Source: an uncultured Candidatus Saccharibacteria bacterium (GTDB taxonomy: Bacteria; Patescibacteriota; Saccharimonadia; Saccharimonadales; AWTP1-31). From it: a stretch of 64,000 nt of DNA. Below are positions 21,945-55,033 of this stretch, piece by piece (position 1 is the stretch's first letter; each line of letters starts with the position of its first letter). Below the pieces are notes generated by a model. It was not told the origin of the DNA. It did no database searches and saw nothing but the letters and a program-made list of their open reading frames with translations. The DNA lies in NCBI GenBank assembly GCA_964643545.1, contig CAZXTE010000001.1, forward strand, positions 19,101 to 83,100. Reading direction: 5' to 3'. Both the position numbers and the translations under genes were made by a program.

Positions 21945-22744
21945 TACAGATCCTCGGCAAAGTTTTTTGCTTCTCTCTTAAAGTACAGGACGCCGAATAA
22001 TAATACAGTGAGTGTTATAGAATATGGTACCAGTCGCGACCATTGACTACCGTAGACATGACTAATTGTTAACGAACTATGCGAAACTGCAGCGTACCTC
22101 GCGTCCTGAACGGCAGTAGCGATTGGATTCACCATCAAGATTTTCTGATACAAGGGCTTCGTTATGATCGAGAGTGGATATAGTATGGGCGTTAGATAGA
22201 ACAACCCTTGAAGCGAAACCTCCCATAGGTGCGTAACGTCCCGATACTTTACAAAGGCCGTCGCAAGAATAAGAGATACTCCCAAGGCAAACAAGTAGAG
22301 CTGAACCAGCACTAATGGCAACAGCAAGATACTTCGCATAATATCAACGTGATTGAATAGCAAGAAAATAAACACAATAATAAGATTAAGCGCTAAGTTA
22401 ATCAGTGCGGTAACGCTACTCGAAAGAACTATTATCCATCTTGGGATACGGATCTTGCGAATTAAGTCACCTCTGGAAACAATACTACTAAGACTTATAC
22501 TTGTCATTTCTGCAAAAAAGTTCCATAGTACTATTCCTAATAATAGGTATATGGGGTAGTGTTCTATGCCCTTACCTATCTTTAAGAATTTTACAAAGAC
22601 GACATAGAGTATCAGGAACAGCAACAACGGGCGCAGAAGCGACCATGCGTAGCCGAGAACAGAGCCTTGATAGCGAAGCTTGAAGTCGGTTCTAACCAGT
22701 TCACCAAGAAGAGTCCTGTTCTGTTTTGAAAATATATGTTTCAT
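21944..22744 (-). CDS. ABC-2 type polysaccharide exporter permease (Wzm/TagG-like)
   Basis: 266 aa with six TM helices. It is translationally coupled to the ATPase by a 1-nt overlap. Confidence 0.8.
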   Translation of the reverse strand: MKHIFSKQNRTLLGELVRTDFKLRYQGSVLGYAWSLLRPLLLFLILYVVFVKFLKIGKGIEHYPIYLLLGIVLWNFFAEMTSISLSSIVSRGDLIRKIRIPRWIIVLSSSVTALINLALNLIIVFIFLLFNHVDIMRSILLLPLVLVQLYLFALGVSLILATAFVKYRDVTHLWEVSLQGLFYLTPILYPLSIITKPLYQKILMVNPIATAVQDARYAAVSHSSLTISHVYGSQWSRLVPYSITLTVLLFGVLYFKREAKNFAEDL

Positions 22745-22783
22745 GGGTTACCAGCCTTTTATTATAAGATAGGTACTAGAAAC

Positions 22784-23794
22784 ATGAAAAAGATATTTGT
22801 CGTAGTCCCAAACTGGAATGGTAAAGATGAGCTAAAGGCCTGTCTTGAGTCGCTTCACGCGCAGACTCAAAGCGCACAGATTTTGGTAGTAGAGAACGGC
22901 TCTAACGATGGCTCCCTAGAATATATCCAAGAGAACTTTAACAACGTGCAACTTGTCATAAATAAAACGAACCTGGGCTTTGCGGGTGGGGTAAATAGCG
23001 GCATTAGGGAAGCAATCGCTAGTGGAGCAGAATATATAGCCCTATTCAATAACGATGCAGTTGCAGATAAAGACTGGCTCAAGCATCTTCTTAAGTCCTT
23101 AGAACAAAACTCGGAAGTCGGAATCACCACCTGTAAACTGTTGAGTGCAGATAAGAAACTGATCGACAGCACGGGTGACCAATATACCACATGGGGACTA
23201 CCCTACCCCAGAGGAAGGGGTGAGATTACCTCCAATAGGTATGATTCCGACACGCATATATTTGGGGCTTCTGGTGGGGCAAGCTTGTACAGAACTAAGA
23301 TGTTTGAAGAAATAGGACTATTTGACGAGGATTTCTTTGCCTACTTTGAAGATGTAGACTTGAGTTTCCGCGCCCAACTTGCTGGCTGGAAAGTACTTTA
23401 CGCTCCCAAAGCTATTGTTTATCACAAAATAGGCGCAACAAGCGGCAAAATAAAGGGCTTTACCACGTATCAAACGTTCAAGAACTATCCATTATTATTC
23501 TGGAAGAACGTTCCCTTTCCGCTTATGTTTAAAATGCTCCCACGATTTACACTCGTTTACGTCAGCATATACATAAGTTCTCTCTTAAAAGGACGTGGTT
23601 TGCCTGCAACAAAAGGCCTTGTGCGCTCACTCACTTTATTACCGAAAAAGACTCTGGAGCGGCGACGCATCCAGAAAAGCCGAATGGTTTCTGCCGAGCA
23701 CATTAATGGCTTGCTCTTGCATGACTTGCCCCCCAATGCCGACAAACTAAGGAAGCTACGTTCTCGTTGGTGGAAAATTATCGGCAAACGGTAA
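22784..23794 (+). CDS. family 2 glycosyltransferase
   Basis: The internal start MKKIFVVVPNWNGKDEL is followed by VVENGSNDGS and a DxD-like DAVAD motif. The ORF-track start at 22736 adds 16 unlikely residues. Confidence 0.75.
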   Translation: MKKIFVVVPNWNGKDELKACLESLHAQTQSAQILVVENGSNDGSLEYIQENFNNVQLVINKTNLGFAGGVNSGIREAIASGAEYIALFNNDAVADKDWLKHLLKSLEQNSEVGITTCKLLSADKKLIDSTGDQYTTWGLPYPRGRGEITSNRYDSDTHIFGASGGASLYRTKMFEEIGLFDEDFFAYFEDVDLSFRAQLAGWKVLYAPKAIVYHKIGATSGKIKGFTTYQTFKNYPLLFWKNVPFPLMFKMLPRFTLVYVSIYISSLLKGRGLPATKGLVRSLTLLPKKTLERRRIQKSRMVSAEHINGLLLHDLPPNADKLRKLRSRWWKIIGKR

Positions 23795-23818: not shown

Positions 23819-24226
23819 TTATATATTAAAGGTCTTCTTGGTCTTGTATGGTTCTAGCTCTAACGAGTCCTGAATTTCAGTATATACAAACGGCATCTCT
23901 TCTCGGGCGAGCGCCTGCATTGTTTTATCAATCATTTCGTATAATTTTGACGTTGGCACATCTTTTAGATCTCGTTTTTCAACTTCTTCTAGCAACTTCT
24001 CAAGTCTCTTGCCAAGAACCTTGATTCGATGTTGTTTACCAATCTTGTATTGTTCTTGCAAATTGTCTAAATACAGACCCTGTTGGTTCTGGATCTCATT
24101 TTCATATTGTTTTGCCCAATTAAACAAAGTTGTCTTACTGACGTCGAGTTTCTTTGCAATATTTGCATAGCTTTCATTGCTCGCACGTAACTCAATAAAT
24201 TTCTCATGTTTCTCTGGCTTACTCAT
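23819..24226 (-). CDS. small helix-turn-helix protein (possible transposase-N-terminal-like or regulator)
   Basis: About 135 aa. The N-terminal HTH ESYANIAKKLDVSKTTLFNWAKQY resembles the IS630/IS3 OrfA HTH, but no DDE domain follows. The C-terminal half is coiled-coil. Confidence 0.4.
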   Translation of the reverse strand: MSKPEKHEKFIELRASNESYANIAKKLDVSKTTLFNWAKQYENEIQNQQGLYLDNLQEQYKIGKQHRIKVLGKRLEKLLEEVEKRDLKDVPTSKLYEMIDKTMQALAREEMPFVYTEIQDSLELEPYKTKKTFNI

Positions 24227-24295
24227 CAACACTCCCCTTGCAATTTTCCTGTTCCGGTATTATACCACCCCTTACCGCCAGGGGTCACTCACGCA

Positions 24296-26757: not shown

Positions 26758-26875
26758 TTGTTGCTTTTATTACTGCTTTTTCTTTGATCTGTTCCGTGGC
26801 AATTTTTAAGCACGACAATTTTTCTTTTTAGGACTCTGCTACTACGCTTTCTTTACTAAATGTAGAGGGTACATT

Positions 26876-28363
26876 TTGAAAAGTTCTTTTTTGAAGGTGC
26901 GCGTATCGAAAAGTCTGTTCATTGTTATTTCTAGCTCAATTATTTTATCAATCCTGGTTCAACCGCTTATAGCTCTAAAAACCTCTGCGCTGGGCACCTA
27001 CCCTAACGCTTCTATTGCAAACCGAGCCCTCGGCTATACGGGCCAATGGGGCGGTAACGCCTGCAAAGATGTTGGTAGGAGTGGATATACTGGTGGTTAC
27101 CCTGGCGGTCAAACCTACGATGGTCAGTGCCGGGCGTTTGTTAACTGTGTGGTTTGGTCCGTTAGTAATCGTACGCAGTGGTTGGGTGGCGGAGACTACT
27201 TTAGCCCACTCGCAGCCAATGGTCATGAAATCAAAGATATTAATGGTTTAGTAAAAGGTGATGTCATCCAGGTCGGGCAAGGCACGCACACATTCATAAT
27301 TGTTGGTCGTACGGGCGGCAATATATTCAGAGTAGTGGACTCGAACAGCAGGCTAGATGAGGTGGTCCGAACATATGACCGTAAAGTCACCCTCGACAAT
27401 ACAAATCGTGCGTTTCGATTAGGTCTGGCTGATGGGCCTCAACCAACTGTGAACGGAGGGGTCGGGACAAGATTGCTCGGTGATGTAAATGGAGATGGGC
27501 TAGACGATGCGATCGTTATGTTTAAAGACACAGGGACAGCAATGGTCGCTCTTTCGCAAGGCAGCAGCTTCTCTAACCCTTCCGCCTGGAGTTATGGCCA
27601 TTCCATGAACGCAAGTAATTACTTTTTGGCCGATGTAAATGGCGATAAAAAGAAGGACTTGGTCGGATTCTTCGCCCAGGACGGGCGCTGGAAAGTTAGC
27701 CTATCTTCTGGGACCGGGTTTTGGTCACCCGTAGAGTGGGCGTATGGGCAGGGTGTTGGTACGAGTAATCAATGGTTAATGGATGCAAATGGTGACGCGA
27801 AGGCCGACATCATAACTCTAGATAAACAAAACGGCGACTGGTATGTAAGCAGCTCATCCGGGAGTGGGTTCTGGCCACCAAAGCGCTGGATTAGTGGCCA
27901 TGGAGTCGGAAGTGACGATCAAGCAGCAGGAGATTTTAACGGGGACGGCAGAGCTGATGTTGCCATTTGGCTTCGGGATGGCTCGTGGTATGTAGCCCTA
28001 TCTACGGGCAGCACGTTCGGCTATCCTGGCCACTGGTCTGCCGGGCAAGGATTAAATAGCAGCCAACGCCTCGTTGGGGATGCAAACGGCGATGGCAGAG
28101 CTGACACAGCATACTTCTACGCCGATACGGGCAGGTGGTACGTATCTACCTCTTCTGGTTCAGGGTTCTGGACACCAACGGAGTGGGCGTATGGGCAGGG
28201 CGTAGGGACCACGGAGCGTTTCTTGGGCACGACCACAAAAGATTCGCTAGCTGACATGGTTACATTTGACAGAAACACGGGAGATTGGTGGGTTAGTGTA
28301 TCGTCTGGATCAGGCTTTTGGCCACCTTCTCGTTGGATCAGTGGTCACGGTAAGGCTTCTTAG
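26876..28363 (+). CDS. secreted CHAP-like amidase/peptidase fused to an FG-GAP (integrin-alpha-like) beta-propeller
   Basis: It has a signal peptide. The N-terminal Cys...His pair (GQCRAFVNCVVW ... GTHTFIIVG) is CHAP-like. Six or more repeats follow with DVNGDG.DD/DANGDGRAD Ca-binding-like FG-GAP motifs. Confidence 0.65.
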   Translation: MKSSFLKVRVSKSLFIVISSSIILSILVQPLIALKTSALGTYPNASIANRALGYTGQWGGNACKDVGRSGYTGGYPGGQTYDGQCRAFVNCVVWSVSNRTQWLGGGDYFSPLAANGHEIKDINGLVKGDVIQVGQGTHTFIIVGRTGGNIFRVVDSNSRLDEVVRTYDRKVTLDNTNRAFRLGLADGPQPTVNGGVGTRLLGDVNGDGLDDAIVMFKDTGTAMVALSQGSSFSNPSAWSYGHSMNASNYFLADVNGDKKKDLVGFFAQDGRWKVSLSSGTGFWSPVEWAYGQGVGTSNQWLMDANGDAKADIITLDKQNGDWYVSSSSGSGFWPPKRWISGHGVGSDDQAAGDFNGDGRADVAIWLRDGSWYVALSTGSTFGYPGHWSAGQGLNSSQRLVGDANGDGRADTAYFYADTGRWYVSTSSGSGFWTPTEWAYGQGVGTTERFLGTTTKDSLADMVTFDRNTGDWWVSVSSGSGFWPPSRWISGHGKAS

Positions 28364-33281: not shown

Positions 33282-34355
33282 GTGATGGCAATCGTTAGTC
33301 TGCAACTAGAAAACTTTCGTACATACTACCGGGATAGTTTCGAATTCTCGGAAGGGGTTAGTATTATTGTTGGTCCAAATGCCAGCGGTAAAACCAATCT
33401 TCTGGAAGCTATACTACTGCTCTGTGAAGGCCAATCGTTTCGCGCCAAAGATCACGAACTTATTAGCCACGAAAAAGACTATGCCCGAATTGAAGGTTTG
33501 GTGGGTATAGATAAGCGCATTGTTTTGATAGAGCACGATGGGATAGAGCGAAGCACAAAAACACACCAGATAAACACCCAAAACCTAAAACGTTTACCAC
33601 CAGCAAAACGAGTGCCGGTGGTGCTGTTCGAGCCGGAAATTTTACAGCTTTTCCAGGGTGGACCCGAAAAACGAAGAGAGTATATAGATAGTCTGATTAG
33701 CCGGACTACCCCAGGATTCAACACAATACTGCGTCAGTACAGGCGGGTCTTAAGCCAACGAAACGCGTTGCTAAAAAGGCAGCAAGCACCAAAGCAGGAA
33801 GAGTTCTTTGCCTGGGATGTCCGACTAAGTGAATTGGGTGGTCAGATTGCCACTGCGCGCAATCAGCTCATCGACAATCTCAACAGCTCAATAAATGAGG
33901 AGTATCAGAAGATAGCTAGCAAGAACAATAATGTGAGCCTTGAGTATCTCTCTAAAATATCGTCATTGTCGTATAACACCAAAATGCTCCACATGCTCGA
34001 GCAGGTATTCCAAACCGATCGGGAACGGGGGTATACAAGTGTCGGGCCTCACAGAGACGACTTGCAAGTGCTTTTTGATGGTAAAGATGCGAAACAGGTA
34101 GCCTCCCGCGGCGAGATGAGATCATTGGTGTTAACACTAAAGATACTTGAGCTAAAGATCGTAGAAGAGGCAGCCCAAAAGCAACCAATACTACTACTCG
34201 ACGATGTGTTTAGCGAACTTGATGGTGCTCGCCGCAAGGCCCTGACAGAATCAATACAACAATACCAAACCTTTATTACGACCACAGACGCAGACCTAAT
34301 CGTGAAGTATTTTATTGGAGCCTGCGAAATAATCCCCACTAACAGAGCAGTCTAA
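33282..34355 (+). CDS. recF: DNA replication and repair protein RecF
   Basis: Walker A GPNASGKTN and the SMC-like signature LSGGE-equivalent region are present, with a Walker B LLLDDV. It sits in the dnaA-dnaN-recF synteny. Confidence 0.85.
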   Translation: MMAIVSLQLENFRTYYRDSFEFSEGVSIIVGPNASGKTNLLEAILLLCEGQSFRAKDHELISHEKDYARIEGLVGIDKRIVLIEHDGIERSTKTHQINTQNLKRLPPAKRVPVVLFEPEILQLFQGGPEKRREYIDSLISRTTPGFNTILRQYRRVLSQRNALLKRQQAPKQEEFFAWDVRLSELGGQIATARNQLIDNLNSSINEEYQKIASKNNNVSLEYLSKISSLSYNTKMLHMLEQVFQTDRERGYTSVGPHRDDLQVLFDGKDAKQVASRGEMRSLVLTLKILELKIVEEAAQKQPILLLDDVFSELDGARRKALTESIQQYQTFITTTDADLIVKYFIGACEIIPTNRAV

Positions 34356-34987
34356 CGGTTGTTTATATTCCGTATGACTGACTCGGGAACTTTTGGAAAC
34401 TCTTTGATGTACAGAATGATCGTTGGACCTGCGGCAATTGACCAGGTGTTACCACTCTTCTTTAGAACAACCAACAAGATATCATCTTGTTCTGGGTCTA
34501 GCGGGAGGAGCTTCCCGGCATACCAGTCACCTCGCAGATAAAGCTTCCCATCGGAAATAGTGTATTTTGAGATATCATCGAAGTCGCTACGTATAACAGA
34601 CTCCACTGCAGACTTTTGAGGAACGAGCATTTCTTGCAAACGACTGTCGCTATACGAAAGTTCGGGGGTTTGAACGGTAGTTTTAGAGCTAATATTCAGT
34701 TGCTTGGATTCTGTTTTATACACACCACCACTAAAGACTGCGTTGTAATATCCTTTGGAGACTCTGACCGTTGTTTTCTCCTGAGTACGTACGATCTCTT
34801 TGGTGCTGGCTGGGTAGTTGGTGCCAGACTGGGTTAGTGTAATGGTTGTCCCTTGCTCTGGGATCAGAGTGACGCGCTTAAGGCCAAAGAAATATCGAAA
34901 ACCAAACCAGGCAACAAGCCCAAAAACCAACACAATAGCACCGAACGTTACCAGGCGCTTAATTTGAATTCGGGGTGGCTCTTCCAT
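34352..34987 (-). CDS. bitopic membrane protein (N-terminal TM, ~180-aa external domain), candidate VirB8-like T4SS subunit
   Basis: A single N-terminal TM (LVTFGAIVLVFGLVAWFGF) is followed by a soluble domain. It is the last gene of the long minus-strand T4SS-like operon. The VirB8 assignment rests on topology only. Confidence 0.4.
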   Translation of the reverse strand: MEEPPRIQIKRLVTFGAIVLVFGLVAWFGFRYFFGLKRVTLIPEQGTTITLTQSGTNYPASTKEIVRTQEKTTVRVSKGYYNAVFSGGVYKTESKQLNISSKTTVQTPELSYSDSRLQEMLVPQKSAVESVIRSDFDDISKYTISDGKLYLRGDWYAGKLLPLDPEQDDILLVVLKKSGNTWSIAAGPTIILYIKEFPKVPESVIRNINNR

Positions 34988-34988
34988 G

Positions 34989-35387
34989 TTAGTCTCCTGA
35001 CTGAAGGTCTCTAAATATTATTTCCAAATCACTAGGGTCATAACCTTGGGAGCGTATCCAGGTTAGTGCTTCTTGCCTGGCCTGTGGATCGGGGGCTTTA
35101 ATGAGAAGCGCTACCGAATCGTTACTGTCGGGTGAGACCAATGACTTCCCGTAATCTATACGGAAGTAGAGGCCGAGTGCAGGGAGTTTATCTACGATGC
35201 TGCTTTTTGCACGGACTGCCGCATCTTTTTCTTGGTAAGACGTACCACCTGCTCTTTCTTTTTCTTGGGTGCTTTTTGTATTGTTTGTTTGGGTCCTTGT
35301 CGTCACCCCAAGAATAAGTAGCCCGAACATGACGATGCCAATAAGTACGGCTATGACAATGATTTTGCTGCGTGGGTTTTCCTGCAT
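34989..35387 (-). CDS. small bitopic membrane protein
   Basis: 132 aa with an N-terminal TM (IIVIAVLIGIVMFGLLILGV). It sits in the operon 1 nt from its neighbour. Confidence 0.45.
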   Translation of the reverse strand: MQENPRSKIIVIAVLIGIVMFGLLILGVTTRTQTNNTKSTQEKERAGGTSYQEKDAAVRAKSSIVDKLPALGLYFRIDYGKSLVSPDSNDSVALLIKAPDPQARQEALTWIRSQGYDPSDLEIIFRDLQSGD

Positions 35388-35400
35388 TACTTCGTCTCCC

Positions 35401-37863
35401 TTATTTAATTCTCGCTACCGAGAAGTGATGGCCACGATCTTCCAGGTAGGCGTTACCAGCTTGTGGCGCCTGGGAGCCGAGTGAAGCCTGGCGCATGTTA
35501 TACGTGCCTCCCTGTGTCCCGACGTAGATGAATGTGTGTCCCTGGTCACCCGCTGCATAGATCAGTATGTCACCCGGCAACAGCTTGCTTGTGTCGTTTA
35601 TATCGTCAAAAACGGTGTACTTTTCGGGATGACTTCGGAGATACTCAAGTTGTGTTCCGGTGTCGACTTTCGGGTAACTCGTGTCCACCCCGCTACTGAG
35701 CATAACCGTAGCCACAAACCCACCACAGTCAGTTACGTCGGGTGTCGGATTGAATTGTTTCTTGGTATCGAGGAATTTTTGTGTTGCCGTTGCCCCATGG
35801 CCTTTGTCCGGCCACGCGAGGCTTATTGCGGTAGCCACAACATCACCCGCAACAGCAGCATTCCCCCCGGCATCAGGAGACCCTGTGCAGGTACCTGCAC
35901 TAGACCCACCACCACCCCCAACATAGTCTGCACCAATTGCAACCTTGTCGTAGTCACCCTCAGTGTCGCCAGGCCAAGCGATTTGTGGGGCGCCCGGTTT
36001 CTCATCGAGGCCGCCTAAATAGGCAAAGATAGCTCCCGCCCCCATGCGTCCGCTGTTGTCCAAGCCGTAATTACCGTATCCATAGGCGGCAGAGCCCAGA
36101 TATGCACTCCAGGTATTGAGCCATTCGTTGGCCCCAAAAGTTCCATCCTGAATGGCTGCAATAACCTCGGCACCAGTCTTCTGTGGGTTTCTTCTTGTTG
36201 CATGAAGGATAAGAACCCAGGTCGAGTAGTCGATATCTTGCACATTAGACCCATAACCACGTCTAGCTGGGGCACGTCCAGGGACTTGCTCGGGAGTATC
36301 AAAGAATCCGGGCACGCCCACATCGGCGGAATGCCACTTGTACTGCTTGCCGCCCAACTCAGCAGCAGTCGGAAGCTTCCGGCCATTAATCATAGATTGT
36401 TCTGGGTTCGAACTGCCTTCACGCCAGTGCGTTGCTGCTAGTGCCTGCCACGGCACGCCCCAACGCGCCCCAATAGACTTGTAGACAGGGATCTCCCTCA
36501 CGATATCACTTTTTATAAGTGCATCGAGTTTTGACTCTAACCCCTTGCCTTTAATCATTACATTATCGGGGTAGGTCTTGTAGCTGGCGTCAGCGGGTGT
36601 CCCTGGGTTACCGCCACCCCCGCCAGGAGCTGGCGCCCCGGGTTGGCGGATTGCATTAATACGATCCAAAGACTGCTGGATGCGCTGATTCGTTATTTTT
36701 CCTGCCTTATAGTCGGATTCAAGCCGGTCAAGCACCTTCCCAACCGATGATTCATTCACAAAAACAGCCATGTCTGCGCCTGCCGCGATCGCCATAGACG
36801 TTGCCTCCTCTACGCCGTATTTAGACTTAATGGCTTCCATGGTGCCTATGTCGTCTGTCATTGCGACACCGTTAAAGCCGTATTTATCGCGCAATAGTTT
36901 ATAGGTCTCGGGGCTCAAACTCGTTGGTATGCCACCAGTTGTTAGTCCGGGCACATTAAGGTGGCCCAGCATAACAGCAGACCTCGGGTTCTTTAGTAGT
37001 TTTTCGTAAGGCTTTAAATCCCTACCCTCCAGAGTTGCTAAGTCACTGGTTGTCACAACCTGTTTGTGCGAATCGCCATTGGCATAACCATGACCTGGGA
37101 AGTGCTTAAACACGGGCGTAAGGTTGCCTTGGCGGAGTCCTTCGGCAAACGCGCCAGACTTTTTTTCTACAACCGCAGGATCTTTCGAGAATGCCCTGTC
37201 CAAGGGGCTAATAACGGCAGAGCCACCATCGAGGTCTGCCACAGGCGCAAAATCCATGGTTAGTCCAACGGCTGCAAGCTTGTCCGCTTGGCCCTTCGCA
37301 ATGCTCTGAACTTCTGTGTCTGTTTTCGTACCCATTTCCCGAGCACTGGGCACAACGCCGAGCGGACGAAAGCGCTGTACTTTACCGCCTTCTTCGTCGG
37401 CAGCCACCAACATGGGTACAGGACCGGCTTTGAACTTATCGATCCACGTTTTATCTTTCTGCTCAAATTGTCGTCCCATCAAGAAGACTCCCCCCACATG
37501 GCTATCAATCAAGGCTTGAGCTTCTGACTCATTTGTCACAGAGACCATCAACAGTTGGGCGAGCTTCCCGCGGATGCCCCACTCAGCTGGAATTTCATAG
37601 CTGGCGCCAGTTGTTGGGCCTGTTGTTTCGCACTTCTCTTTGGCGTAGTTTGTCTTGTGGTGTTCCGTGTTTAGGAGGATGTGGTACAGATCGTCCTCGG
37701 GTATTTTTGCAGCCATTCCAAGTGGGATGATTGCTTGGAAATACAGCATGGTGAGAATGAACGACGCGCAAAAGAGGCGGAACAGGTGCTTTTTCTTCAC
37801 TATAGACATAGACATAGGCATGGTGTTATTAGCTCCCAGTATGAGACCAATGCCATGGCTCAT
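35401..37863 (-). CDS. secreted multi-domain peptidoglycan hydrolase: GH3 beta-N-acetylhexosaminidase (NagZ-like) plus C-terminal CHAP/NlpC-P60-like domain
   Basis: The KHFPGHGYANGDSH motif is a GH3 hallmark. A Gly/Pro linker (PGGGGGNPGTP) follows, then a middle domain, then C-terminal Cys (DCGGFVATVM) and His (GHTFIYVG) papain-like motifs. It has an N-terminal signal anchor. The real start may be an internal Met at 37821, 37815 or 37809, which would remove the 35-nt overlap. Confidence 0.7.
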   Translation of the reverse strand: MSHGIGLILGANNTMPMSMSIVKKKHLFRLFCASFILTMLYFQAIIPLGMAAKIPEDDLYHILLNTEHHKTNYAKEKCETTGPTTGASYEIPAEWGIRGKLAQLLMVSVTNESEAQALIDSHVGGVFLMGRQFEQKDKTWIDKFKAGPVPMLVAADEEGGKVQRFRPLGVVPSAREMGTKTDTEVQSIAKGQADKLAAVGLTMDFAPVADLDGGSAVISPLDRAFSKDPAVVEKKSGAFAEGLRQGNLTPVFKHFPGHGYANGDSHKQVVTTSDLATLEGRDLKPYEKLLKNPRSAVMLGHLNVPGLTTGGIPTSLSPETYKLLRDKYGFNGVAMTDDIGTMEAIKSKYGVEEATSMAIAAGADMAVFVNESSVGKVLDRLESDYKAGKITNQRIQQSLDRINAIRQPGAPAPGGGGGNPGTPADASYKTYPDNVMIKGKGLESKLDALIKSDIVREIPVYKSIGARWGVPWQALAATHWREGSSNPEQSMINGRKLPTAAELGGKQYKWHSADVGVPGFFDTPEQVPGRAPARRGYGSNVQDIDYSTWVLILHATRRNPQKTGAEVIAAIQDGTFGANEWLNTWSAYLGSAAYGYGNYGLDNSGRMGAGAIFAYLGGLDEKPGAPQIAWPGDTEGDYDKVAIGADYVGGGGGSSAGTCTGSPDAGGNAAVAGDVVATAISLAWPDKGHGATATQKFLDTKKQFNPTPDVTDCGGFVATVMLSSGVDTSYPKVDTGTQLEYLRSHPEKYTVFDDINDTSKLLPGDILIYAAGDQGHTFIYVGTQGGTYNMRQASLGSQAPQAGNAYLEDRGHHFSVARIK

Positions 37864-40800
37864 TCCAGTACTGCTTTAGATTATACTTTCCGGCGTTATC
37901 TATGAGCCAGTCCCACATCGGCATGCCGGGGGCAACACGAGGGTTGCTGGGGCTAGCTTTCCCACCATTTTTTGTGCCAAACTCCTCAGGGTGACCAACT
38001 CGAGTAAGCGCAAAATCTACGGCATCACCAGACTGATGTCTAGATGTTCCAGGCTTTGCGACATCGGAGTAGACGCCGTTAGGGCACTTATCATCTTTTG
38101 CGCACAGCTCTTGTTGGTGCTTCATGGTGCGAAAACTACTGGAGGCTTTGGGTGAGACGCCATCGCTCTTCATGGCGTTAAACATGTTCACCCAATCATT
38201 TGATTTGTCTGCTGCCACGAGTACGTTACCATCTGCCCCATTTACGTAATATTGACTACGCGGATTACTCTCCTCGCTTGAACTTGGGAAGCCAAGGATC
38301 GCACACAGGGTTATCTTCTTTAGAACGCCACCTTCATACCCATCGGCAAGCCCCACGTTCTTGGTGCCACTTGCACAGGTTCCGTCGCCCGTACCTCCCG
38401 TAGAGGCGGGGGGTGGTCCAAGACTCGCCACAAGAAAGTCGCTCTTTGCCAGGTATCCTGCAGCAGTATGGTGAATTTTATCTGGCGCAAACGGATACTT
38501 AGCTGGATTTTTAGCCACCTCGGCACGCCAGTCAATGGGTGTATATTTCAGGGCAGCCGCCTGGCTCGAAACTGCCGCCGCGACAGCATCGTAATTGGAA
38601 ATTTGGGTTTTTGCATTCATCCAGAATATCTTCGCCGAGGGGTTGTATTCGTGGATTTTGTCGACCATGAGTTTTATTTTGCTCGCGAACTGGGGGCTGT
38701 CTGGTCCTGGGTTTGTGCCCAGCATGACCGCTATTGTCCCGGCACGGCTAACTTCGTTTCTATCGAGGTCGATCTTTTCTAGAGATCGGTCAACGTCTAT
38801 ACCGTCGGTTGCCTGGACCTTGGTAACTTCCCACCCAGCAGTTTGCAGCTTGTTCGTTAATGAGCCTAAGTCTTTCATGCCGTTTGTCAACGAGTCGCCA
38901 ACGACGTAGACTGCATTATTGCCACCCCCACTATTTGAACCTCCGCCCCCGCTGGTGGTTTCAGATTCATAATCTTCCGGGTCGAGCACATCAGTTGTAT
39001 ATCGGCCACCAGCTGCCGCCACAGCCTTCTTATTTAGCAAGCAAGGGTTTTCCTTGGTGTGCACGTCGGTGCCCGTCTCCTTGTCCTCTATAAGCGTACC
39101 TGCAAATTCACCGCGCCCATTCGCCCAGTCTTTATCCATCTTTTCACAGACGGCGTCGGTAAGCGTGTCTGGGTCAACATCAAGTGCTGACGAATTCTTT
39201 GGAAAGCCATATTGGACGACACCAAATGGGTCAGGCTTTGCATCTGCTGCAAAGGTCTTTTTGGTGGCAAGTAAACTGCCAAAACTTTTTGACAGGCTTG
39301 TGAATGGATTTGCGAGAAGACCGGTGACGCCTGTATTGGCGGTTCTAGTCACACTGCTGGGTGTAGCCATCGCCATTTGGCTGACAAGTGATTTTGGACT
39401 CTCTGTGCTGAACATACGAGCAAAGAATGGTTGACGTTGGAATTCCTCGTTGCGCTGATTCTCTTGGTCGGCGCGAATCTCGGCTACCTGGGCGTCGGTG
39501 AGGCGTATGCCCCCCAGGCCATAGTGTGCATCATTATTCCCTGCTACATCGGCACCGCCTGCGAGCATATCGAATGTGCGGGCCCCGCTCATGTCTGCAG
39601 ACACTGGTGACGGGATTAGCCACTTCGCAATTGTTTCGAATATCTTGCCGATTTGTTCCTCAATCATCTTCTTTAGGTCAGCGTATTGAGGAAAGATCTT
39701 GCTAATTGCTGCCTCGACAGCACCTACGCCCAGATCAATGAGCTTATTGATCAAGTTAAGGATTTGTCCGATTGTGGCGTTCCATGCATCTGCCGTCTGC
39801 CCGAGCAGACTAAGTGGGGGTTGATTAAAGATGTCAGATATTTTCTGGATGACCCCATTGGTAAGCAGACTTTCCTCTGGGCAAATAAGCTTACCGGTGT
39901 CTGGCTTATTCTTATCGTCACATGTGTATTTTGGCTCTGACGCAGTGCTGCCCGTTTCTGCTGCGTATGCTTTTTGCGGCGACAGGACATCCAAAAAGGA
40001 GCTTTTTTGTATTGGTTCGCCTAGGATGTCCCCGTAGAGTGGTGCTAATTCAGCGGGTTGATTTTTGTGGTCTTTATCACCGGCGCTGTCACCCACACCA
40101 TTCGTCATGCTACCGAGCAACTCGACGTTACAATGCATGCCTTTGCACTCGTCTGCAGTTGTTCTATACAGCATGTAGGTTGCCACCATTTGCGTGCCAA
40201 TAATTTCGTATTTCCAGCGTTTCAATGCCGGCCCAGCTGACTTAGCTTTCGCGGTAATTCTGGCTGCTAGGTCAATCCAGCCAATAACAGGCAAGCCTTT
40301 CGAGGCGGCTGACCCTGCAGCCTCTCCGGCAATCTTCGCAACAACCTCTTCAACAATAAAAGCAGTTAAGCTCTTGTCTGCGAGTTTAATTGTCTTCTCA
40401 ACAATTTTTTCTACGGTCTCCTCGGTGAATTCTTTGCCAGACTTCTCAAGTGCCTCACGAATTTGTTTCTCTATTTTGTCTCTCCTCACTCCGTCATTGT
40501 CAGCTTCACCCTTCGATGCTTTGTCCGAATCACAGGCAGGATCGATGATACACTCTAATACAAAACCCAGATGTTGAGTGTAGGGTATGATGACCCGGCG
40601 ATTAATGACGAGCCTGAAGGCTCCCTTCTTTTTGTCTTTCCAGTCGTCTATGCGATCTTTTGATTTGCACGCAAAAACACACCTCCGGATGCCGTATTTT
40701 TCTTCCAGAAGTCGCCCCACCTTGAATCGGTACATAACACGCTTCCACAATGTCTCTTCTTTGAAAGACTCACGTACTTTTATGCGAACATCATTTCTGC

Positions 40801-41575
40801 CACCTGCTGCCTTCCACATACCCTGGTTTGGGTCTTTTCGCCAGCCTTCTACGTCAAGGTTACTCACTTTGTCATTGACCTTAATCTTGTAGTCGCTTGC
40901 CCCGCCACTAAAACCATCCCGGGTTATTTCTATGCCGTATTTCTCGGATAGTTTATTCTCGAGGCGTGCATCGCGCCAACCCCTAAACAAGCGGGCAGCC
41001 GGCGAATCGCCTTCTAGATTGGCAATACAATTTTTGTCTATTGTCCCAGACGAACGACTACAGGTTCCCTTGCCTAGGTTTGGGATCACCTTATCTCGGA
41101 GGTACTTGTCTAGTAGCCTTTCTGCTCTCGTTTGCACAGCACTCTCCGAGCTGGCAAAAAAGCGACTCTGCAAATTTTCCATGATGTGGTTAATCTTCAA
41201 GGGCAAAAACGCCATGAATGCGGCCAGAATCAAACCGCCAATGCCACCCCCAATAAGCCCAGCACCAATCAATTTCTTTTTTTTGCCGCCCGTGGCACCT
41301 GCTAAAAATTTCTTAAGGCTTTGAAGGTCTTTTACATCCTCAGTATTGTAGCCGCTCCCAACCCTATCGCCGAGCGCATCTGCTTCTCTTGATGCGGCTC
41401 CGCCAACACCATCCGCTGCCTCTCCCTGAGCCTCTTGCTCTGAGATATTTGGTGTTTCTGTCGAAGCGTCACCACTGGCCTCGTTTGTTAGTTTGGGGTC
41501 CTCATCTCCGCCCCCCACACTTCCTGATGCTCTTCGAGGCGAGTCATCGTCATATATTTTTGATGGTTCACCCAT
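37829..41575 (-). CDS. giant membrane-anchored multi-domain protein: SGNH/GDSL hydrolase plus C-terminal M15 (VanY/LAS-type) peptidase domain
   Basis: 1248 aa with an N-terminal TM (GAGLIGGGIGGLILAAFMAFL). There are a GDSL block VYVVGDSLTNG and a downstream SGNH-like block. The C-terminal SRHQSGDAVD ... EPWHW motifs match Zn D-Ala-D-Ala carboxypeptidase-like (VanY / peptidase M15) signatures. Confidence 0.65.
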   Translation of the reverse strand: MGEPSKIYDDDSPRRASGSVGGGDEDPKLTNEASGDASTETPNISEQEAQGEAADGVGGAASREADALGDRVGSGYNTEDVKDLQSLKKFLAGATGGKKKKLIGAGLIGGGIGGLILAAFMAFLPLKINHIMENLQSRFFASSESAVQTRAERLLDKYLRDKVIPNLGKGTCSRSSGTIDKNCIANLEGDSPAARLFRGWRDARLENKLSEKYGIEITRDGFSGGASDYKIKVNDKVSNLDVEGWRKDPNQGMWKAAGGRNDVRIKVRESFKEETLWKRVMYRFKVGRLLEEKYGIRRCVFACKSKDRIDDWKDKKKGAFRLVINRRVIIPYTQHLGFVLECIIDPACDSDKASKGEADNDGVRRDKIEKQIREALEKSGKEFTEETVEKIVEKTIKLADKSLTAFIVEEVVAKIAGEAAGSAASKGLPVIGWIDLAARITAKAKSAGPALKRWKYEIIGTQMVATYMLYRTTADECKGMHCNVELLGSMTNGVGDSAGDKDHKNQPAELAPLYGDILGEPIQKSSFLDVLSPQKAYAAETGSTASEPKYTCDDKNKPDTGKLICPEESLLTNGVIQKISDIFNQPPLSLLGQTADAWNATIGQILNLINKLIDLGVGAVEAAISKIFPQYADLKKMIEEQIGKIFETIAKWLIPSPVSADMSGARTFDMLAGGADVAGNNDAHYGLGGIRLTDAQVAEIRADQENQRNEEFQRQPFFARMFSTESPKSLVSQMAMATPSSVTRTANTGVTGLLANPFTSLSKSFGSLLATKKTFAADAKPDPFGVVQYGFPKNSSALDVDPDTLTDAVCEKMDKDWANGRGEFAGTLIEDKETGTDVHTKENPCLLNKKAVAAAGGRYTTDVLDPEDYESETTSGGGGSNSGGGNNAVYVVGDSLTNGMKDLGSLTNKLQTAGWEVTKVQATDGIDVDRSLEKIDLDRNEVSRAGTIAVMLGTNPGPDSPQFASKIKLMVDKIHEYNPSAKIFWMNAKTQISNYDAVAAAVSSQAAALKYTPIDWRAEVAKNPAKYPFAPDKIHHTAAGYLAKSDFLVASLGPPPASTGGTGDGTCASGTKNVGLADGYEGGVLKKITLCAILGFPSSSEESNPRSQYYVNGADGNVLVAADKSNDWVNMFNAMKSDGVSPKASSSFRTMKHQQELCAKDDKCPNGVYSDVAKPGTSRHQSGDAVDFALTRVGHPEEFGTKNGGKASPSNPRVAPGMPMWDWLIDNAGKYNLKQYWNEPWHWSHTGS

Positions 41576-41601
41576 GGTTGTTTATACGGCTCCGACCATA
41601 G

Positions 41602-43515
41602 TTAAACTCCAGGCGTCAATCTATTGTTAAGGTCAATGGTGCCTTGTGGCTGATTGATTTCGCCCTGTCTCATTTGTTGAACCTGCTGCGGATTCGTTGT
41701 GATAAGCCCGGTTTCTGTAGGGCTGGCTGTAATCTGGATATGAACGTGGCTTTGCCCAGCGAAGAACAGGCCCTGGCCAACAGGAAATTGACTGAGGCGC
41801 TTCTTCTCCTCGCTGGTAAGCTTGAATATATCAGCCAATACATCAACGGCAGACGTCGACTGCTTCAGCAGTATCTGCATGCTTGCGTTGGCAACGATCG
41901 CGCGACCCATGCGTGATCCCATAAAGTCCTCCACATCCTGGCTAATGGTGGTAATGCCGAGGTTGTACTTTCGAGCACGTTTTGCAAGCGAAAACAAGAA
42001 GTTAGCAGAGTCTTCGTACTTCATAAGCTGCCAAGCTTCATCGACAATCAGAATGCGACGTTTTACGTCACTCTTCGTTTTGTTCCAGATGTAGTTCAGT
42101 ACAATGTACATAGCAACGGGGCGTAATTCGTCCTCGAGGTCACGTATGTTAAACACAACCAGGGGATTATTGACGTTAGTATTCGATTGCTGACTAAAAA
42201 TGCCCGCAAATGTACCGGTGGTATATTTTCTTAGACGCTGTGCGAGCTGTGGTCCTGTGCCGCCCATATGTAGCAGCGTGTCGTACAGATCGGCAATTGT
42301 TGGCGGAACCCCATTGTGCGTGAGTGGATCGTTGGTTATGCCGGCCTTGGCATATGTTTCGATGAGTGCTGCGTCGAGGTCGGATTCTTCTACGGGGGAT
42401 AAAGCAGGAACAGCGGCTACACCGCCACTTGCTGCCATTTGTGCTTGTGCGCCACCCATCATCAGTCGGAAGAGCCCGTGCAAAGTAATAATATTACTAC
42501 GCAAGGCGTTGTCGGCTTCTTCGGCATCTACAACCTTCGGAAGGTCAAAGGGGTTAATGCGTGTTGCTGAGCTCAAACTTAGTCGTACATATGCACCACC
42601 GACTGCATCACACATTCGCTGGTATTCGTTTTCTGGGTCAATAATAAAGATTTCGGTGCCGAACATAAGACTACGCAACGCTTCTAGCTTAACGGTAAAC
42701 GACTTACCAGCACCCGACTTGGCAAAGACAACTGAGTTGCCATTTTCTAGGCTAAACCGATCAAATATAACAAGACCAGAGTTGTGCATGTTGATGCCGT
42801 ACAATATGCCATTCTCTTGGCTCAGGTCGGCCGAAGTAAACGGGAAGCTCGTGCTAATCGCGCCCGTGTTCATATTGCGACGAATCTGAAGCTGGTCCAT
42901 AAATTGCGGTATGCAACTATTAAAGCCCTGCTCTTGCTGTGAGGTAGCTGCTTTGGAGTAGGTTAGCTGTTGGCCCAGCATAGACTCGATCTTGTGGGTT
43001 ACAAACTCCAGTTCGTCCATGTCGCCTGCGTAGACAGTAAAATATAATCCAAAACGGAAGAAACGTTCCTCGCCAACCTGTAACTTATCGCGCATTTCCT
43101 CAGCATCTGTAATGGCGGCCTGCTTGCCTGGGTCTCGCACGCGTCCCTTCTCTGCGTCAATCTGTAGACCGGCCTCTAACTGCGTTACTTTTTTGCGCAA
43201 GTTCTCCAAAACCACTTGGCTTTCCACGGGGTATATATACATAGAAAGATCCATAACCTCGTCGATGTTTACCAGGCTACTTGCCCAGCCTGTAAAAACC
43301 TGGCGGGGGTATCCGTAGACATAAAATGTTCTGGCTATCCTGGTCCCAATATGGAACAGACTATTCTCGAACACAAGTGAACTGGGGGCGATAAAGTCAC
43401 GAAGTGCAGTGATGCCCTTTTGGAACGCTGCGCTTACCTCTTGCTCTTCTCGTGCTCGTTGCGCTTGTGCGATTGCAACCGGGTCAACGGGTTGGTTCTT
43501 TCTGCCAAAAGCCAT
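41602..43515 (-). CDS. virB4: type IV secretion system ATPase, VirB4/TraC/CagE family (C-terminal ATPase module)
   Basis: Walker A FAKSGAGKSF and Walker B ILIVDEAWQL (DEAW is characteristic of VirB4) are present, with an ISQDVEDF motif C region. 637 aa is short for VirB4, which suggests the N-terminal domain is encoded separately. Confidence 0.75.
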   Translation of the reverse strand: MAFGRKNQPVDPVAIAQAQRAREEQEVSAAFQKGITALRDFIAPSSLVFENSLFHIGTRIARTFYVYGYPRQVFTGWASSLVNIDEVMDLSMYIYPVESQVVLENLRKKVTQLEAGLQIDAEKGRVRDPGKQAAITDAEEMRDKLQVGEERFFRFGLYFTVYAGDMDELEFVTHKIESMLGQQLTYSKAATSQQEQGFNSCIPQFMDQLQIRRNMNTGAISTSFPFTSADLSQENGILYGINMHNSGLVIFDRFSLENGNSVVFAKSGAGKSFTVKLEALRSLMFGTEIFIIDPENEYQRMCDAVGGAYVRLSLSSATRINPFDLPKVVDAEEADNALRSNIITLHGLFRLMMGGAQAQMAASGGVAAVPALSPVEESDLDAALIETYAKAGITNDPLTHNGVPPTIADLYDTLLHMGGTGPQLAQRLRKYTTGTFAGIFSQQSNTNVNNPLVVFNIRDLEDELRPVAMYIVLNYIWNKTKSDVKRRILIVDEAWQLMKYEDSANFLFSLAKRARKYNLGITTISQDVEDFMGSRMGRAIVANASMQILLKQSTSAVDVLADIFKLTSEEKKRLSQFPVGQGLFFAGQSHVHIQITASPTETGLITTNPQQVQQMRQGEINQPQGTIDLNNRLTPGV

Positions 43516-44387: not shown

Positions 44388-44427
44388 GCTACCTGTCTAC
44401 CCACTCCCTTGGTGCTCAATTGATAAT

Positions 44428-45471: not shown

Positions 45472-45523
45472 TTAGTATCTGATATTCATCAGAAGCATGC
45501 AAGTTTTATAGAGGAAACTTGTA

Positions 45524-46495: not shown

Positions 46496-46547
46496 CAGTA
46501 CACTATTTTGGTTAATAAGTCAACAAGGTTGTGTAAAGTCATCTATA

Positions 46548-54829: not shown

Positions 54830-54919
<90 letters not shown>

Positions 54920-54940
54920 AGACTAGCTTTTCGTGTTACG

Positions 54941-55033
54941 TGGCGGAGGAGGAGGGATTCGAACCCTCGCGGGAGATTGCTCCCCCCTAACGATTTAGCA
55001 AACCGTCCCCTTCAGCCTCTTGGGTACTCCTCC
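54941..55033 (-). tRNA. tRNA-Ser (anticodon GCU)
   Basis: The reverse complement gives acceptor GGAGGAG/CTCCTCC and anticodon loop UUGCUAA, with a long variable arm. The T-loop is GGTTCGAATCC and the CCA is encoded. Confidence 0.85.

What the first reader, a model, noticed from the sequence alone, without database searches (positions are those of the whole stretch)
26876..28363. Secreted CHAP-like peptidase fused to an FG-GAP beta-propeller, adjacent to the origin gene cluster
Signal peptide, then a Cys...His CHAP-like module (QCRAFVNCVVW ... GTHTFIIVG). Six or more FG-GAP/integrin-alpha-like repeats follow, carrying Ca-binding DxNGDGxxD motifs (DVNGDGLDD, DVNGDKKKD, DANGDAKAD, DFNGDGRAD, DANGDGRAD). 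The CHAP-like module resembles the C-terminal domain of the 820-aa hydrolase (DCGGFV / GHTFIYVG), so the genome carries a family of related amidase modules on different scaffolds. It is a candidate host-cell-wall attacking or adhesion enzyme.
Basis: seen in the sequence. Interest (0 to 1): 0.6.

Follow-up and report, generated by a model that had tools for sequence, protein, structure and literature searches.

The report
Lectin-guided secreted cell-wall hydrolase
This gene of an uncultured Saccharibacterium most likely encodes an exported enzyme that joins a divergent CHAP-type cell-wall-cutting domain to a six-bladed sugar-binding propeller; the type of enzyme is familiar, but the propeller's closest solved relative recognises Streptomyces wall polymers, which gives a testable idea for how these epibionts engage their actinobacterial hosts.

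Summary
Window 26876..28363 (+) is an intact 495-aa ORF made of a signal peptide, a roughly 150-aa Cys/His module and six 50-aa FG-GAP repeats.

- **Pfam.** FG-GAP_3 matches at 2.6e-19. The N-module gives no CHAP or NlpC/P60 hit, even at E<=10.
- **Export.** A perfectly covarying Cys63/Cys91 pair implies a disulfide, so the protein is extracytoplasmic.
- **Architecture.** Its closest sequence relatives (60-69% identity) sit behind genuine CHAP or M23 domains.

Verdict: a lectin-targeted secreted peptidoglycan hydrolase and a new member of a known kind. Whether it cuts the host's wall or its own is unresolved. Its position next to the replication-origin genes is incidental.

The parts
26864..26869 (+). 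Shine-Dalgarno-like AGAGGG, 6 nt upstream of the TTG start
   Evidence: Read directly from the sequence printed.
26876..28363 (+). Complete ORF of 495 aa plus stop codon. An alternative GTG start lies at 26897 (488 aa).
   Evidence: The identical protein P0012 is in public collections. Cluster members of 495 and 488 aa come from independent assemblies.
26876..26989 (+). Signal peptide, aa 1-38: a basic n-region, a hydrophobic core LFIVISSSIILSILVQPLIAL, then a c-region ending in TSA
   Evidence: Sequence. In relatives the domain begins just after a leader of this kind, with an A-x-A-type consensus. The cleavage site is inferred; no signal-peptide predictor was available.
26990..27433 (+). Divergent CHAP-like (papain-fold, NlpC/P60-superfamily) catalytic module, aa 39-186
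27062..27064 (+). Cys63, predicted disulfide partner of Cys91, in the variable loop before the catalytic helix
   Evidence: Cys63 and Cys91 are both present in 87 relatives, both absent in 34 and never discordant.
27128..27130 (+). Cys85, predicted nucleophile, first residue of the model's third helix (model residues 50-61)
   Evidence: Cys in 120 of 121 relatives. Helix position. Corresponds to Cys54 of CHAPK.
27146..27148 (+). Cys91, predicted disulfide partner of Cys63
27287..27289 (+). His138, predicted general base, at the start of a beta-strand
   Evidence: His in 120 of 121 relatives. Strand position. Corresponds to His117 of CHAPK.
27338..27346 (+). Asp155-Ser156-Asn157: third triad residue and predicted oxyanion-hole Asn
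   Evidence: Asp in 120 of 121 and Asn in 121 of 121 relatives. The His-to-acid spacing of 17 and the acid-x-Asn motif are identical to CHAPK His117/Glu134/Asn136.
27461..28360 (+). Six-bladed FG-GAP / PVL-type beta-propeller (lectin-like), aa 196-495
27461..27610 (+). Blade repeat 1 (aa 196-245), Ca-type loop DVNGDGLDD
27611..27760 (+). Blade repeat 2 (aa 246-295), DVNGDKKKD
27761..27910 (+). Blade repeat 3 (aa 296-345), DANGDAKAD
27911..28057 (+). Blade repeat 4 (aa 346-394), DFNGDGRAD
28058..28207 (+). Blade repeat 5 (aa 395-444), DANGDGRAD
28208..28360 (+). Blade repeat 6 (aa 445-495), degenerate loop TTTKDSLAD, which has lost the first two acidic/amide positions
   Evidence: The degenerate loop is conserved in close variants.

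Best explanation
The gene encodes an exported, two-module cell-wall hydrolase.

**Proposed mechanism, in order.**
1. The Sec pathway exports the protein and the roughly 38-residue leader is removed.
2. The N-terminal module (aa 39-186) folds as a papain-like CHAP/NlpC-P60 domain. A Cys63-Cys91 disulfide stabilises it.
3. It cleaves an amide or peptide bond of peptidoglycan. Cys85 is the nucleophile, His138 the base, Asp155 orients the histidine and Asn157 forms the oxyanion hole.
4. The C-terminal six-bladed propeller (aa 196-495) acts as a lectin. Its DxNGDxxxD loops are predicted Ca sites that hold the blades. The variable pockets between blades bind a wall glycan, either a GlcNAc-containing or a teichuronic/teichoic-type polymer. 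This concentrates the catalytic module on a particular Gram-positive wall.

**What is shown.**
- The domain identities, folds and conserved residues.
- The recurring pairing of a hydrolase domain with this propeller.

**What is inferred.**
- Catalytic activity, the bond cleaved, Ca and sugar binding, and the cleavage site of the leader.

**Which wall.** I favour, modestly (about even odds given the above), the wall of the actinobacterial host at the epibiont contact site over the bacterium's own wall. Both modules have their nearest relatives in Actinomycetota. The nearest solved propeller recognises a species-specific Streptomyces wall polymer.

The confidence of 0.75 applies to the domain-level statement (a secreted, lectin-targeted peptidoglycan hydrolase), not to the choice of wall.
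For: **N-module.**
- No direct Pfam hit, but a coherent family: 360 clusters at E<=1e-3 and 246 at E<=1e-10.
- It lies just after a leader in 148 of 153 members.
- Cys85, His138, Asp155 and Arg181 are kept in 120 of 121 members. Gln132 and Asn157 are kept in all 121.
- 22 of 114 members give CHAP hits, best 4.3e-6.
- Profile hits at E 3e-43 carry precomputed PF05257. One hit at 8e-20 is named 'CHAP domain-containing protein'.
- AF2 model: pLDDT 92.6, pTM 0.88.
- The Foldseek top 19 are all CHAP or NlpC/P60, led by the LysGH15 and LysK CHAP domains, probability 1.0, TM up to 0.62.
- Cys lies at a helix N-terminus, His at a strand start, and D-x-N follows 17 residues after His. This matches CHAPK Cys54/His117/Glu134/Asn136, where mutagenesis showed these residues matter (PMC4126393).
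- Cys63 and Cys91 covary 87/34/0.

**Propeller.**
- Pfam FG-GAP_3 at 2.6e-19.
- Six blades, pLDDT 95.5.
- The UmbA4 propeller is six-bladed with conserved Ca loops and variable sugar pockets (PMC13274773).
- The profile matches GlcNAc-specific lectins PVL, AAL-2 and 5mb4 at 6.5e-23 to 5e-16.

**Architecture.**
- The closest propeller relatives (60-69% identity, about 500 aa) carry Pfam CHAP or Peptidase_M23 in place of the N-module.
- Other N-module proteins carry bulb lectins or other propellers instead.

**Gene integrity.** The gene is under purifying selection. The mature catalytic module differs at 2 positions among variants that are about 95% identical.

**Biology.**
- The window is about 95% identical in DNA to a Candidatus Saccharibacteria MAG.
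- Cultivated Saccharibacteria are epibionts of Actinobacteria. A lectin-like VCBS protein is essential in one of them (PMC10633639).
Against: - The target itself has no Pfam, NCBIfam or PHROGs hit for the N-module.
- A profile-profile comparison with nine genuine CHAP domains was not significant, at probability 0.3%.
- A sequence search of the PDB found nothing.
- Coordinates of the model could not be inspected, so the geometry of the triad is inferred from secondary-structure positions only.
- No activity, sugar-binding or localisation data exist.
- The sixth blade has a degenerate Ca loop.
- Nothing distinguishes host wall from own wall. GC3 is not unusual (z 0.6), so there is no sign of recent acquisition from a host.
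- The module was absent from the phage and plasmid collections at BLAST sensitivity, so no characterised lysin is a close relative.
Confidence: 0.75

Rival explanations
1. It is a housekeeping autolysin. The enzyme remodels the Saccharibacterium's own Gram-positive-type wall during growth, septation or turnover. The propeller binds the cell's own wall glycopolymer.
For: - Modular CHAP, NlpC/P60 and M23 enzymes with wall-binding domains are classic autolysins. PcsB, CwlO, LytE and RipA appear among the structural matches.
- The actinobacterial proteins with the same propeller plus CHAP or M23 could be autolysins too.
- The gene lies directly downstream of, and on the same strand as, a surface-glycan cluster of GT2, Wzy_C and GT1 genes.
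- Composition is native-like.
- The catalytic module is highly conserved between strains.
Against: - The module is patchy. Only 4 Saccharibacteria/Patescibacteria genomes among 185,579 species representatives matched, and these carry different C-terminal modules. That does not fit a core division enzyme.
- N-modules from Saccharibacteria interleave with actinobacterial ones rather than forming one clade.
- The nearest solved propeller is used to recognise foreign cells.
Confidence: 0.3
2. It is an interbacterial weapon against competitors, not the host. The secreted lysin kills rival Gram-positive bacteria, or rival epibionts, chosen by the lectin. This would parallel umbrella toxins or type VI amidase effectors.
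For: - The closest propeller structure belongs to an antibacterial toxin particle whose lectins set target specificity.
- Type VI amidase effectors Tae2, Tae3, Tae4 and Tse1 are among the fold matches of the N-module.
Against: - No adjacent immunity-like gene is evident. The neighbours are GT1 and jag.
- No umbB/umbC-type partners or trypsin-like UmbA head are present.
- A secreted free lysin is a poor weapon unless it is concentrated on its target.
Confidence: 0.1
3. It is an adhesin or acts on a substrate other than peptidoglycan. The propeller mediates attachment. The Cys/His module acts on something else (a protein, a lipid or a small-molecule amide), or serves mainly as a binding domain.
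For: - The NlpC/P60/CHAP superfamily includes glutathionylspermidine amidase, transglutaminase-like enzymes and C39 peptidases, seen at lower Z.
- One family member has lost both Cys85 and His138, so non-catalytic use exists.
- Authors of the Southlakia study speculated on adhesion roles for VCBS proteins.
Against: - Cys, His, Asp and Asn are near-invariant in 120-121 of 121 members, which argues for catalysis.
- The same propeller is swapped between CHAP, M23 and this module. That points to a shared substrate, the cell wall.
Confidence: 0.1

Closest known systems
CHAP-domain peptidoglycan hydrolases (Pfam PF05257; e.g. the LysK CHAPK and LysGH15 CHAP domains, PlyGRCS, PcsB)
- Cys at a helix N-terminus, His at a strand start, and an acid-x-Asn motif 17 residues after His, as in CHAPK Cys54/His117/Glu134/Asn136.
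- A long variable loop before the catalytic Cys.
- Modular fusion to a wall-targeting domain.
   Different: - The target does not match the PF05257 profile at all.
- Identity to solved CHAP domains is 11-17%.
- The acid is Asp rather than Glu.
- A family-specific disulfide (Cys63-Cys91) replaces the Ca-binding lobe of CHAPK.
- An invariant GD(I/V)VQ...HT motif is specific to the family.
NlpC/P60 DL-endopeptidases (Pfam PF00877; SagA, CwlO, LytE, RipA/RipB, MepS, Trichomonas NlpC1)
   Same: Same superfamily fold at equal Z (9-11.8), with a Cys-His-polar triad. The window's 820-aa protein has a weak NLPC_P60 hit, and the N-module profile aligns to it in register.
   Different: There is no PF00877 hit. 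Sequence-level links run to CHAP rather than to NlpC/P60.
UmbA4 C-terminal beta-propeller of the Streptomyces coelicolor umbrella toxin (PDB 9oee; family 6BP-4)
- Conserved Ca-type loops with divergent inter-blade pockets.
- It is a secreted protein that recognises a Gram-positive wall glycopolymer.
   Different: - UmbA4 has a trypsin-like head that docks onto UmbB/UmbC, plus a bulb lectin, and it delivers a separate toxin.
- Here the propeller is fused directly to a hydrolase, and no umb genes are nearby.
- The ligand of the present propeller is unknown.
PVL-type fungal lectins (Psathyrella velutina lectin, Agrocybe AAL-2; GlcNAc-specific)
   Different: PVL is listed at 400-401 residues, against about 300 for this propeller. 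From my own knowledge, PVL has seven blades and no enzyme attached. This propeller has six blades and is fused to an enzyme.
Uncharacterised actinobacterial 'CHAP + FG-GAP' and 'Peptidase_M23 + FG-GAP' proteins (e.g. Streptomyces albus 'peptidase m23', proteins labelled 'surface antigen')
   Same: Same overall format (about 500 aa: leader, hydrolase domain, this propeller), with 50-69% identity in the propeller.
   Different: The catalytic domain is a Pfam-recognised CHAP or M23. No functional study of this architecture was found in the searchable literature.

Membership tests
CHAP domain (Pfam PF05257) | Match to the PF05257 profile at or above the gathering score (26 bits) | tested here: not met
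   The full protein gave no hit at E<=1, and the isolated module gave none at E<=10. Relatives do hit: 22 of 114, best 4.3e-6. Several profile hits carry precomputed PF05257.
CHAP domain (Pfam PF05257) | Papain-like alpha+beta fold shared with solved CHAP domains | tested here: met
CHAP domain (Pfam PF05257) | Conserved catalytic Cys and His, plus a third polar residue and an oxyanion Asn | tested here: met
   Cys85, His138 and Asp155 in 120 of 121 members and Asn157 in 121 of 121. Spacing and motif match CHAPK.
CHAP domain (Pfam PF05257) | Amidase or endopeptidase activity on peptidoglycan | not testable with these tools
   Needs a zymogram or muropeptide LC-MS with wild-type and C85A protein.
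NlpC/P60 (Pfam PF00877) | Match to the PF00877 profile | tested here: not met
   No hit. The fold similarity is equal to that for CHAP, so the module belongs to the superfamily (clan CA papain-like wall hydrolases), not to this family.
FG-GAP / VCBS repeat propeller (Pfam PF13517, PF01839) | Profile match above the gathering score, in several tandem repeats | tested here: met
   FG-GAP_3 scores 70 bits against 26.9 over 5 stretches. FG-GAP scores 28.4 against 22.1. Six 50-aa repeats.
FG-GAP / VCBS repeat propeller (Pfam PF13517, PF01839) | Ca-binding DxDxDG-type loop in each blade | tested here: inconclusive
   Five of six blades carry DxNGDxxxD and the sixth is degenerate. The aspartates are invariant in 25 relatives. 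Metal binding itself was not tested.
PVL/UmbA-type beta-propeller lectins | Closed beta-propeller homologous to known carbohydrate-binding propellers | tested here: met
PVL/UmbA-type beta-propeller lectins | Binds a defined carbohydrate in the inter-blade pockets | not testable with these tools
   Needs glycan arrays, or binding to wall teichoic/teichuronic acid or peptidoglycan, with and without EDTA.
UmbA spoke of umbrella toxin particles | N-terminal trypsin-like domain that docks UmbB, with umbB and umbC genes present | tested here: not met
   The N-terminal module is CHAP-like, not trypsin-like. The neighbours are GT1 and jag/yidC. The protein shares only the lectin propeller type.

The most novel reading that the evidence does not exclude
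The propeller may be a host-range determinant. In this reading it recognises a species-specific teichuronic or teichoic-type glycopolymer on the surface of particular Actinomycetota, in the way UmbA4 does for Streptomyces umbrella toxins. It then positions the CHAP-like module to open the host wall locally at the epibiont attachment site. The pool of lectin modules (six-bladed propellers, bulb lectins, other propellers) and this fringe CHAP module would then be exchanged between Actinomycetota and their Saccharibacteria epibionts, as part of a surface-glycan arms race.
Probability: 0.25. Interest if true: 0.7.

Novelty: new member of a known kind. Interest (0 to 1): 0.35.

Why it matters
How Saccharibacteria and other Patescibacteria recognise, attach to and feed on their actinobacterial hosts is largely unknown. 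The one genome-wide genetic study found lectin-like VCBS proteins among the essential envelope proteins, without a mechanism (PMC10633639).

This protein offers a concrete, expressible candidate. It has a catalytic module with four predicted active-site residues that can be mutated. It also has a lectin module whose nearest solved relative reads species-specific Streptomyces wall polymers.

On the annotation side, a family of about 360 clusters is now recognisable as a divergent CHAP subfamily. It is currently labelled 'hypothetical' or only 'VCBS repeat-containing', and Pfam and NCBIfam miss it.

If the enzyme turns out to be an ordinary autolysin, the finding is routine.

Tried and rejected
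- **Family libraries on the N-module.** Pfam, NCBIfam and PHROGs scans of the N-module gave nothing usable.
- **PDB by sequence.** A search with the 5-sequence profile gave only chance defensin matches at E>2.
- **Profile-profile comparison.** hhalign of the family (A5) against nine genuine CHAP domains taken from propeller relatives (A6) was not significant, at probability 0.3%. It did pair the GD..Q/His region. The CHAP link therefore rests on structure and on intermediate sequences.
- **Phages and plasmids.** tblastn of the N-module found no match in either collection. I dropped the idea that it is a known actinophage lysin domain.
- **DNA-level repeats.** No tandem repeats in the gene. The blades are old duplications.
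- **Promoters and terminators.** The scan was uninformative: 0 promoters, and terminator-like sites at the chance level and inside the ORF.
- **Recent transfer from a high-GC host.** Not supported. Gene GC is 0.51 against 0.46 for the window, but GC3 has z 0.6.
- **Functional link to the replication origin.** Rejected. Only the near-identical genome L001 shares the synteny.
- **Full-length model.** The alignment built for it (A7) was discarded, because MAFFT placed the N-module fragments on the propeller. The two modules were modelled separately, so their relative orientation is unknown.
- **Hypervariable propeller pockets between strains.** Not evident. There are 11 substitutions in 305 residues among variants that are about 95% identical.
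- **First Pfam scan of family members.** It exceeded the residue limit and was repeated on 114 sequences.
Full report
**1. Observation**

Window 26876..28363 (+) is a single 495-aa ORF with a TTG start. An AGAGGG motif lies 6 nt upstream. A GTG at codon 8 is used by other gene callers. A sixth, degenerate loop (TTTKDSLAD) lies at 452. The C-terminal 300 residues are six repeats of about 50 aa.

The identical protein is already in public collections. Variants of 92-99.8% identity occur in independent assemblies and are all intact. The gene is therefore real and under purifying selection.

The window is about 95% identical in DNA to a Candidatus Saccharibacteria MAG.

**2. Neighbours**

Pfam identifies the following:
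- Downstream: jag/khpB, yidC, rnpA, rpmH, dnaA and dnaN.
- Upstream: a surface-glycan cluster of GT2, an HTH/transposase-like ORF, a Wzy_C O-antigen-ligase-like protein and GT1.

The position next to the origin genes is shared only with the near-identical genome L001. Four other Saccharibacteria/Patescibacteria loci that encode the N-module lack these neighbours. I treat the origin adjacency as incidental.

**3. The N-terminal module**

Sequence searches:
- Direct scans fail. There is no CHAP, NlpC/P60 or any other Pfam hit even at E<=10, nothing in NCBIfam and nothing useful in PHROGs.
- A word-indexed search found only six unannotated relatives.
- An exhaustive profile search found 360 clusters at 50% identity, 246 of them at E<=1e-10.

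Family properties:
- The domain starts within the first 100 residues, after a hydrophobic leader, in 148 of 153 proteins. It is followed by variable C-terminal regions.
- Across 121 full-length domains, Cys85, His138, Asp155 and Arg181 are kept in 120. Gln132 and Asn157 are kept in all 121.
- Cys63 and Cys91 are both present in 87 members, both absent in 34 and never discordant. They travel with an insertion loop. This is the signature of a disulfide, and so of an extracytoplasmic protein.

Links to CHAP by sequence:
- 22 of 114 members give weak to moderate CHAP hits, best 4.3e-6.
- A profile search returns proteins that carry precomputed PF05257, for example at E 3e-43. One protein at E 8e-20 is named 'CHAP domain-containing protein'.
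- A direct profile-profile comparison with nine genuine CHAP domains was not significant.

Structure:
- The AlphaFold model is confident (pLDDT 92.6, pTM 0.88).
- The 19 best Foldseek matches in the PDB are all CHAP or NlpC/P60 domains. They include LysGH15, LysK CHAPK, Ly7917, PlyPy and PcsB, at probability 1.0.
- In the model, Cys85 is the first residue of a helix, His138 opens a strand, and Asp155-Ser-Asn157 closes the next strand.
- In CHAPK the triad is Cys54 (helix), His117 (strand) and Glu134, with Asn136 proposed for the oxyanion hole. Mutagenesis supports each of them (PMC4126393).
- The His-to-acid spacing is 17 in both proteins, and both have an acid-x-Asn motif.

I conclude that the module is a divergent, disulfide-stabilised CHAP-type cysteine hydrolase on the fringe of PF05257.

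**4. The propeller**

- Pfam FG-GAP_3 (70 bits) and FG-GAP both pass their cut-offs.
- Modelled with 25 relatives, it is a closed six-bladed propeller of 24 strands (pLDDT 95.5, pTM 0.92).
- Next come Psathyrella velutina lectin with a GlcNAc derivative (19.7), CV39L lectin, TcdB2 and PLL lectin.
- The UmbA4 paper describes a six-bladed propeller with conserved Ca-type loops and divergent sugar pockets. It recognises a species-specific teichuronic-acid-like polymer attached to wall teichoic acid (PMC13274773).
- At sequence level the propeller profile matches the GlcNAc-specific lectins PVL, AAL-2 and 5mb4 at E 6.5e-23 to 5e-16.

The propeller is therefore best read as a lectin for a wall glycan.

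**5. Architecture as evidence**

- The closest relatives of this propeller (60-69% identity, about 500 aa) carry a Pfam-recognised CHAP or Peptidase_M23 domain where the target has its N-module.
- Named examples come from Actinomycetota: Streptomyces albus 'peptidase m23', Micromonospora and Nonomuraea.
- Conversely, the N-module is found in front of other FG-GAP propellers, bulb lectins (B_lectin), DUF346/PD40-type propellers and dockerins.
- Interchange of three wall-hydrolase domains on one lectin, and of several lectins behind one hydrolase, is what modular cell-wall hydrolases show. It argues that the substrate is the cell wall.
- The lectin repertoire mirrors that of the UmbA spokes.

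**6. The 820-aa protein**

- The protein at 35401..37863 (-) has a GH3 domain (1e-63). Its C-terminal region reaches NLPC_P60 only at E 0.0023, below the cut-off.
- BLASTP against the target module aligns 33 residues around the His motif, at E 7e-5 for the single pair.
- The 51-sequence family profile finds it as the only other hit among 348 window ORFs (E 5e-4). The alignment pairs both DCGGFV with GQCRAFV and GHTFIYVG with HTFIIV.

The two modules belong to the same superfamily. They are not close paralogues.

**7. Distribution and origin**

- Named carriers of the N-module are Patescibacteria/Saccharimonadales and Actinomycetota. The latter include Amycolatopsis, Gordonia, Pseudonocardia, Catenulispora, Streptomyces, Acidimicrobiales and Solirubrobacterales.
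- Saccharibacterial modules do not cluster together. One is 68-69% identical to the Amycolatopsis and Solirubrobacterales modules but only 52-62% to the Saccharibacteria/Patescibacteria modules. The target is 56% identical to the Amycolatopsis module and 42-53% to two Saccharimonadales modules.
- This fits exchange between the two phyla, but no rooted tree was made.
- The target's GC3 is ordinary (z 0.6), so any transfer is not recent.

**8. Mechanism and rivals**

Best explanation, confidence 0.75 for the domain-level statement: a Sec-exported, lectin-guided peptidoglycan hydrolase.

- Cys85, His138, Asp155 and Asn157 carry out papain-type hydrolysis of a stem-peptide or amide bond.
- The propeller concentrates the enzyme on a wall that carries its glycan ligand.

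Which wall is open. I lean slightly to the actinobacterial host for three reasons:
- The nearest relatives of both modules are actinobacterial.
- The nearest solved propeller discriminates Streptomyces species by their wall polymers.
- Cultivated Saccharibacteria are epibionts of Actinobacteria, with essential lectin-like VCBS envelope proteins.

The main rival is a self-directed autolysin (0.3). A competitor-directed lysin and an adhesin or non-peptidoglycan enzyme are less likely (0.1 each). None of the activity, the bond specificity, Ca binding or sugar binding has been shown.

**9. Novelty and score**

- The kind is well known: a secreted CHAP/NlpC-P60 hydrolase with a wall-binding module.
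- The CHAP + FG-GAP architecture is already visible in databases. I found no paper on it.
- What is new is modest. An unrecognised CHAP subfamily is now defined by residues and fold. A Saccharibacterial protein is linked to UmbA4-type lectins.
- I rate it a new member of a known kind, interest 0.35.
- The most novel reading that remains open is that the propeller acts as a host-range determinant reading host wall glycopolymers. I give it probability about 0.25 and interest 0.7 if true.

Noticed in passing
window 34352-49844 (-): A type IV secretion-like cluster with very large wall-active proteins. It includes an 820-aa GH3 protein with a weak NlpC/P60-like C-terminus (35401-37863), a 1248-aa protein with GDSL lipase/esterase and VanY D-Ala-D-Ala carboxypeptidase domains (37829-41575), and a VirB4/TraG-type ATPase (41602-43515).
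   Followed up: partly
window 22736-23794 (+), compared with L001 3618-4616: The GT2 glycosyltransferase is only 54% identical to its counterpart in the otherwise 95-100% identical genome L001. It sits next to an HTH/transposase-like ORF (23819-24232). It looks like a strain-variable gene in the surface-glycan cluster (GT2, Wzy_C, GT1) just upstream of the target.
   Followed up: no
L001 about 9040-9060 (orthologue of the target): The public MAG has a run of N inside the orthologous gene. NCBI annotates the resulting 347-aa fragment as 'VCBS repeat-containing protein, partial'. The catalytic module is not annotated in public records.
   Followed up: yes
N-module family (alignment of 121 domains): One family member has Ala in place of Cys85 and one has Tyr in place of His138. 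I take these to be the same sequence ('...GDGQARAFVNC...GTYSFVIV', printed), which would be a probable pseudoenzyme inside an otherwise strictly conserved family.
   Followed up: no
N-module family, target aa 63 and 91 (window 27062-27064 and 27146-27148): Two non-catalytic cysteines covary perfectly (87 both present, 34 both absent, 0 discordant). They are tied to an insertion loop of variable length before the catalytic Cys. This is a subfamily-specific disulfide.
   Followed up: yes
L003, L004, L006, L007, L008 (proteins printed): The same N-module is fused to quite different repeat domains in other genomes:
- An unrecognised 'GGGN.LT...RETY' repeat in Amycolatopsis, with no Pfam hit.
- A repeat in Gordonia that Pfam does not recognise and that looks to me like a DUF346/PLL-type propeller (DUF346 is hit by two other family members).
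- FG-GAP propellers of other types in Saccharimonadales.

This repertoire parallels the lectin families listed for Streptomyces UmbA proteins.
   Followed up: partly
window 26876-28360 (propeller part, aa 243-329): The propeller hits phrog_10385, a 2333-position phage protein family of unknown function, at E 1.5e-15. FG-GAP-type repeats therefore also occur in giant phage proteins.
   Followed up: no
window 54833-55033 (-), 55741-55814 (+), 62219-62305 (+): Four tRNA genes are the only Rfam matches in the window at gathering threshold.
   Followed up: no
literature: Southlakia epibionticum SEML1_0891 (PMC10633639): A lectin-like VCBS-domain envelope protein is reported as essential in a cultivated Saccharibacterium.
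   Followed up: no
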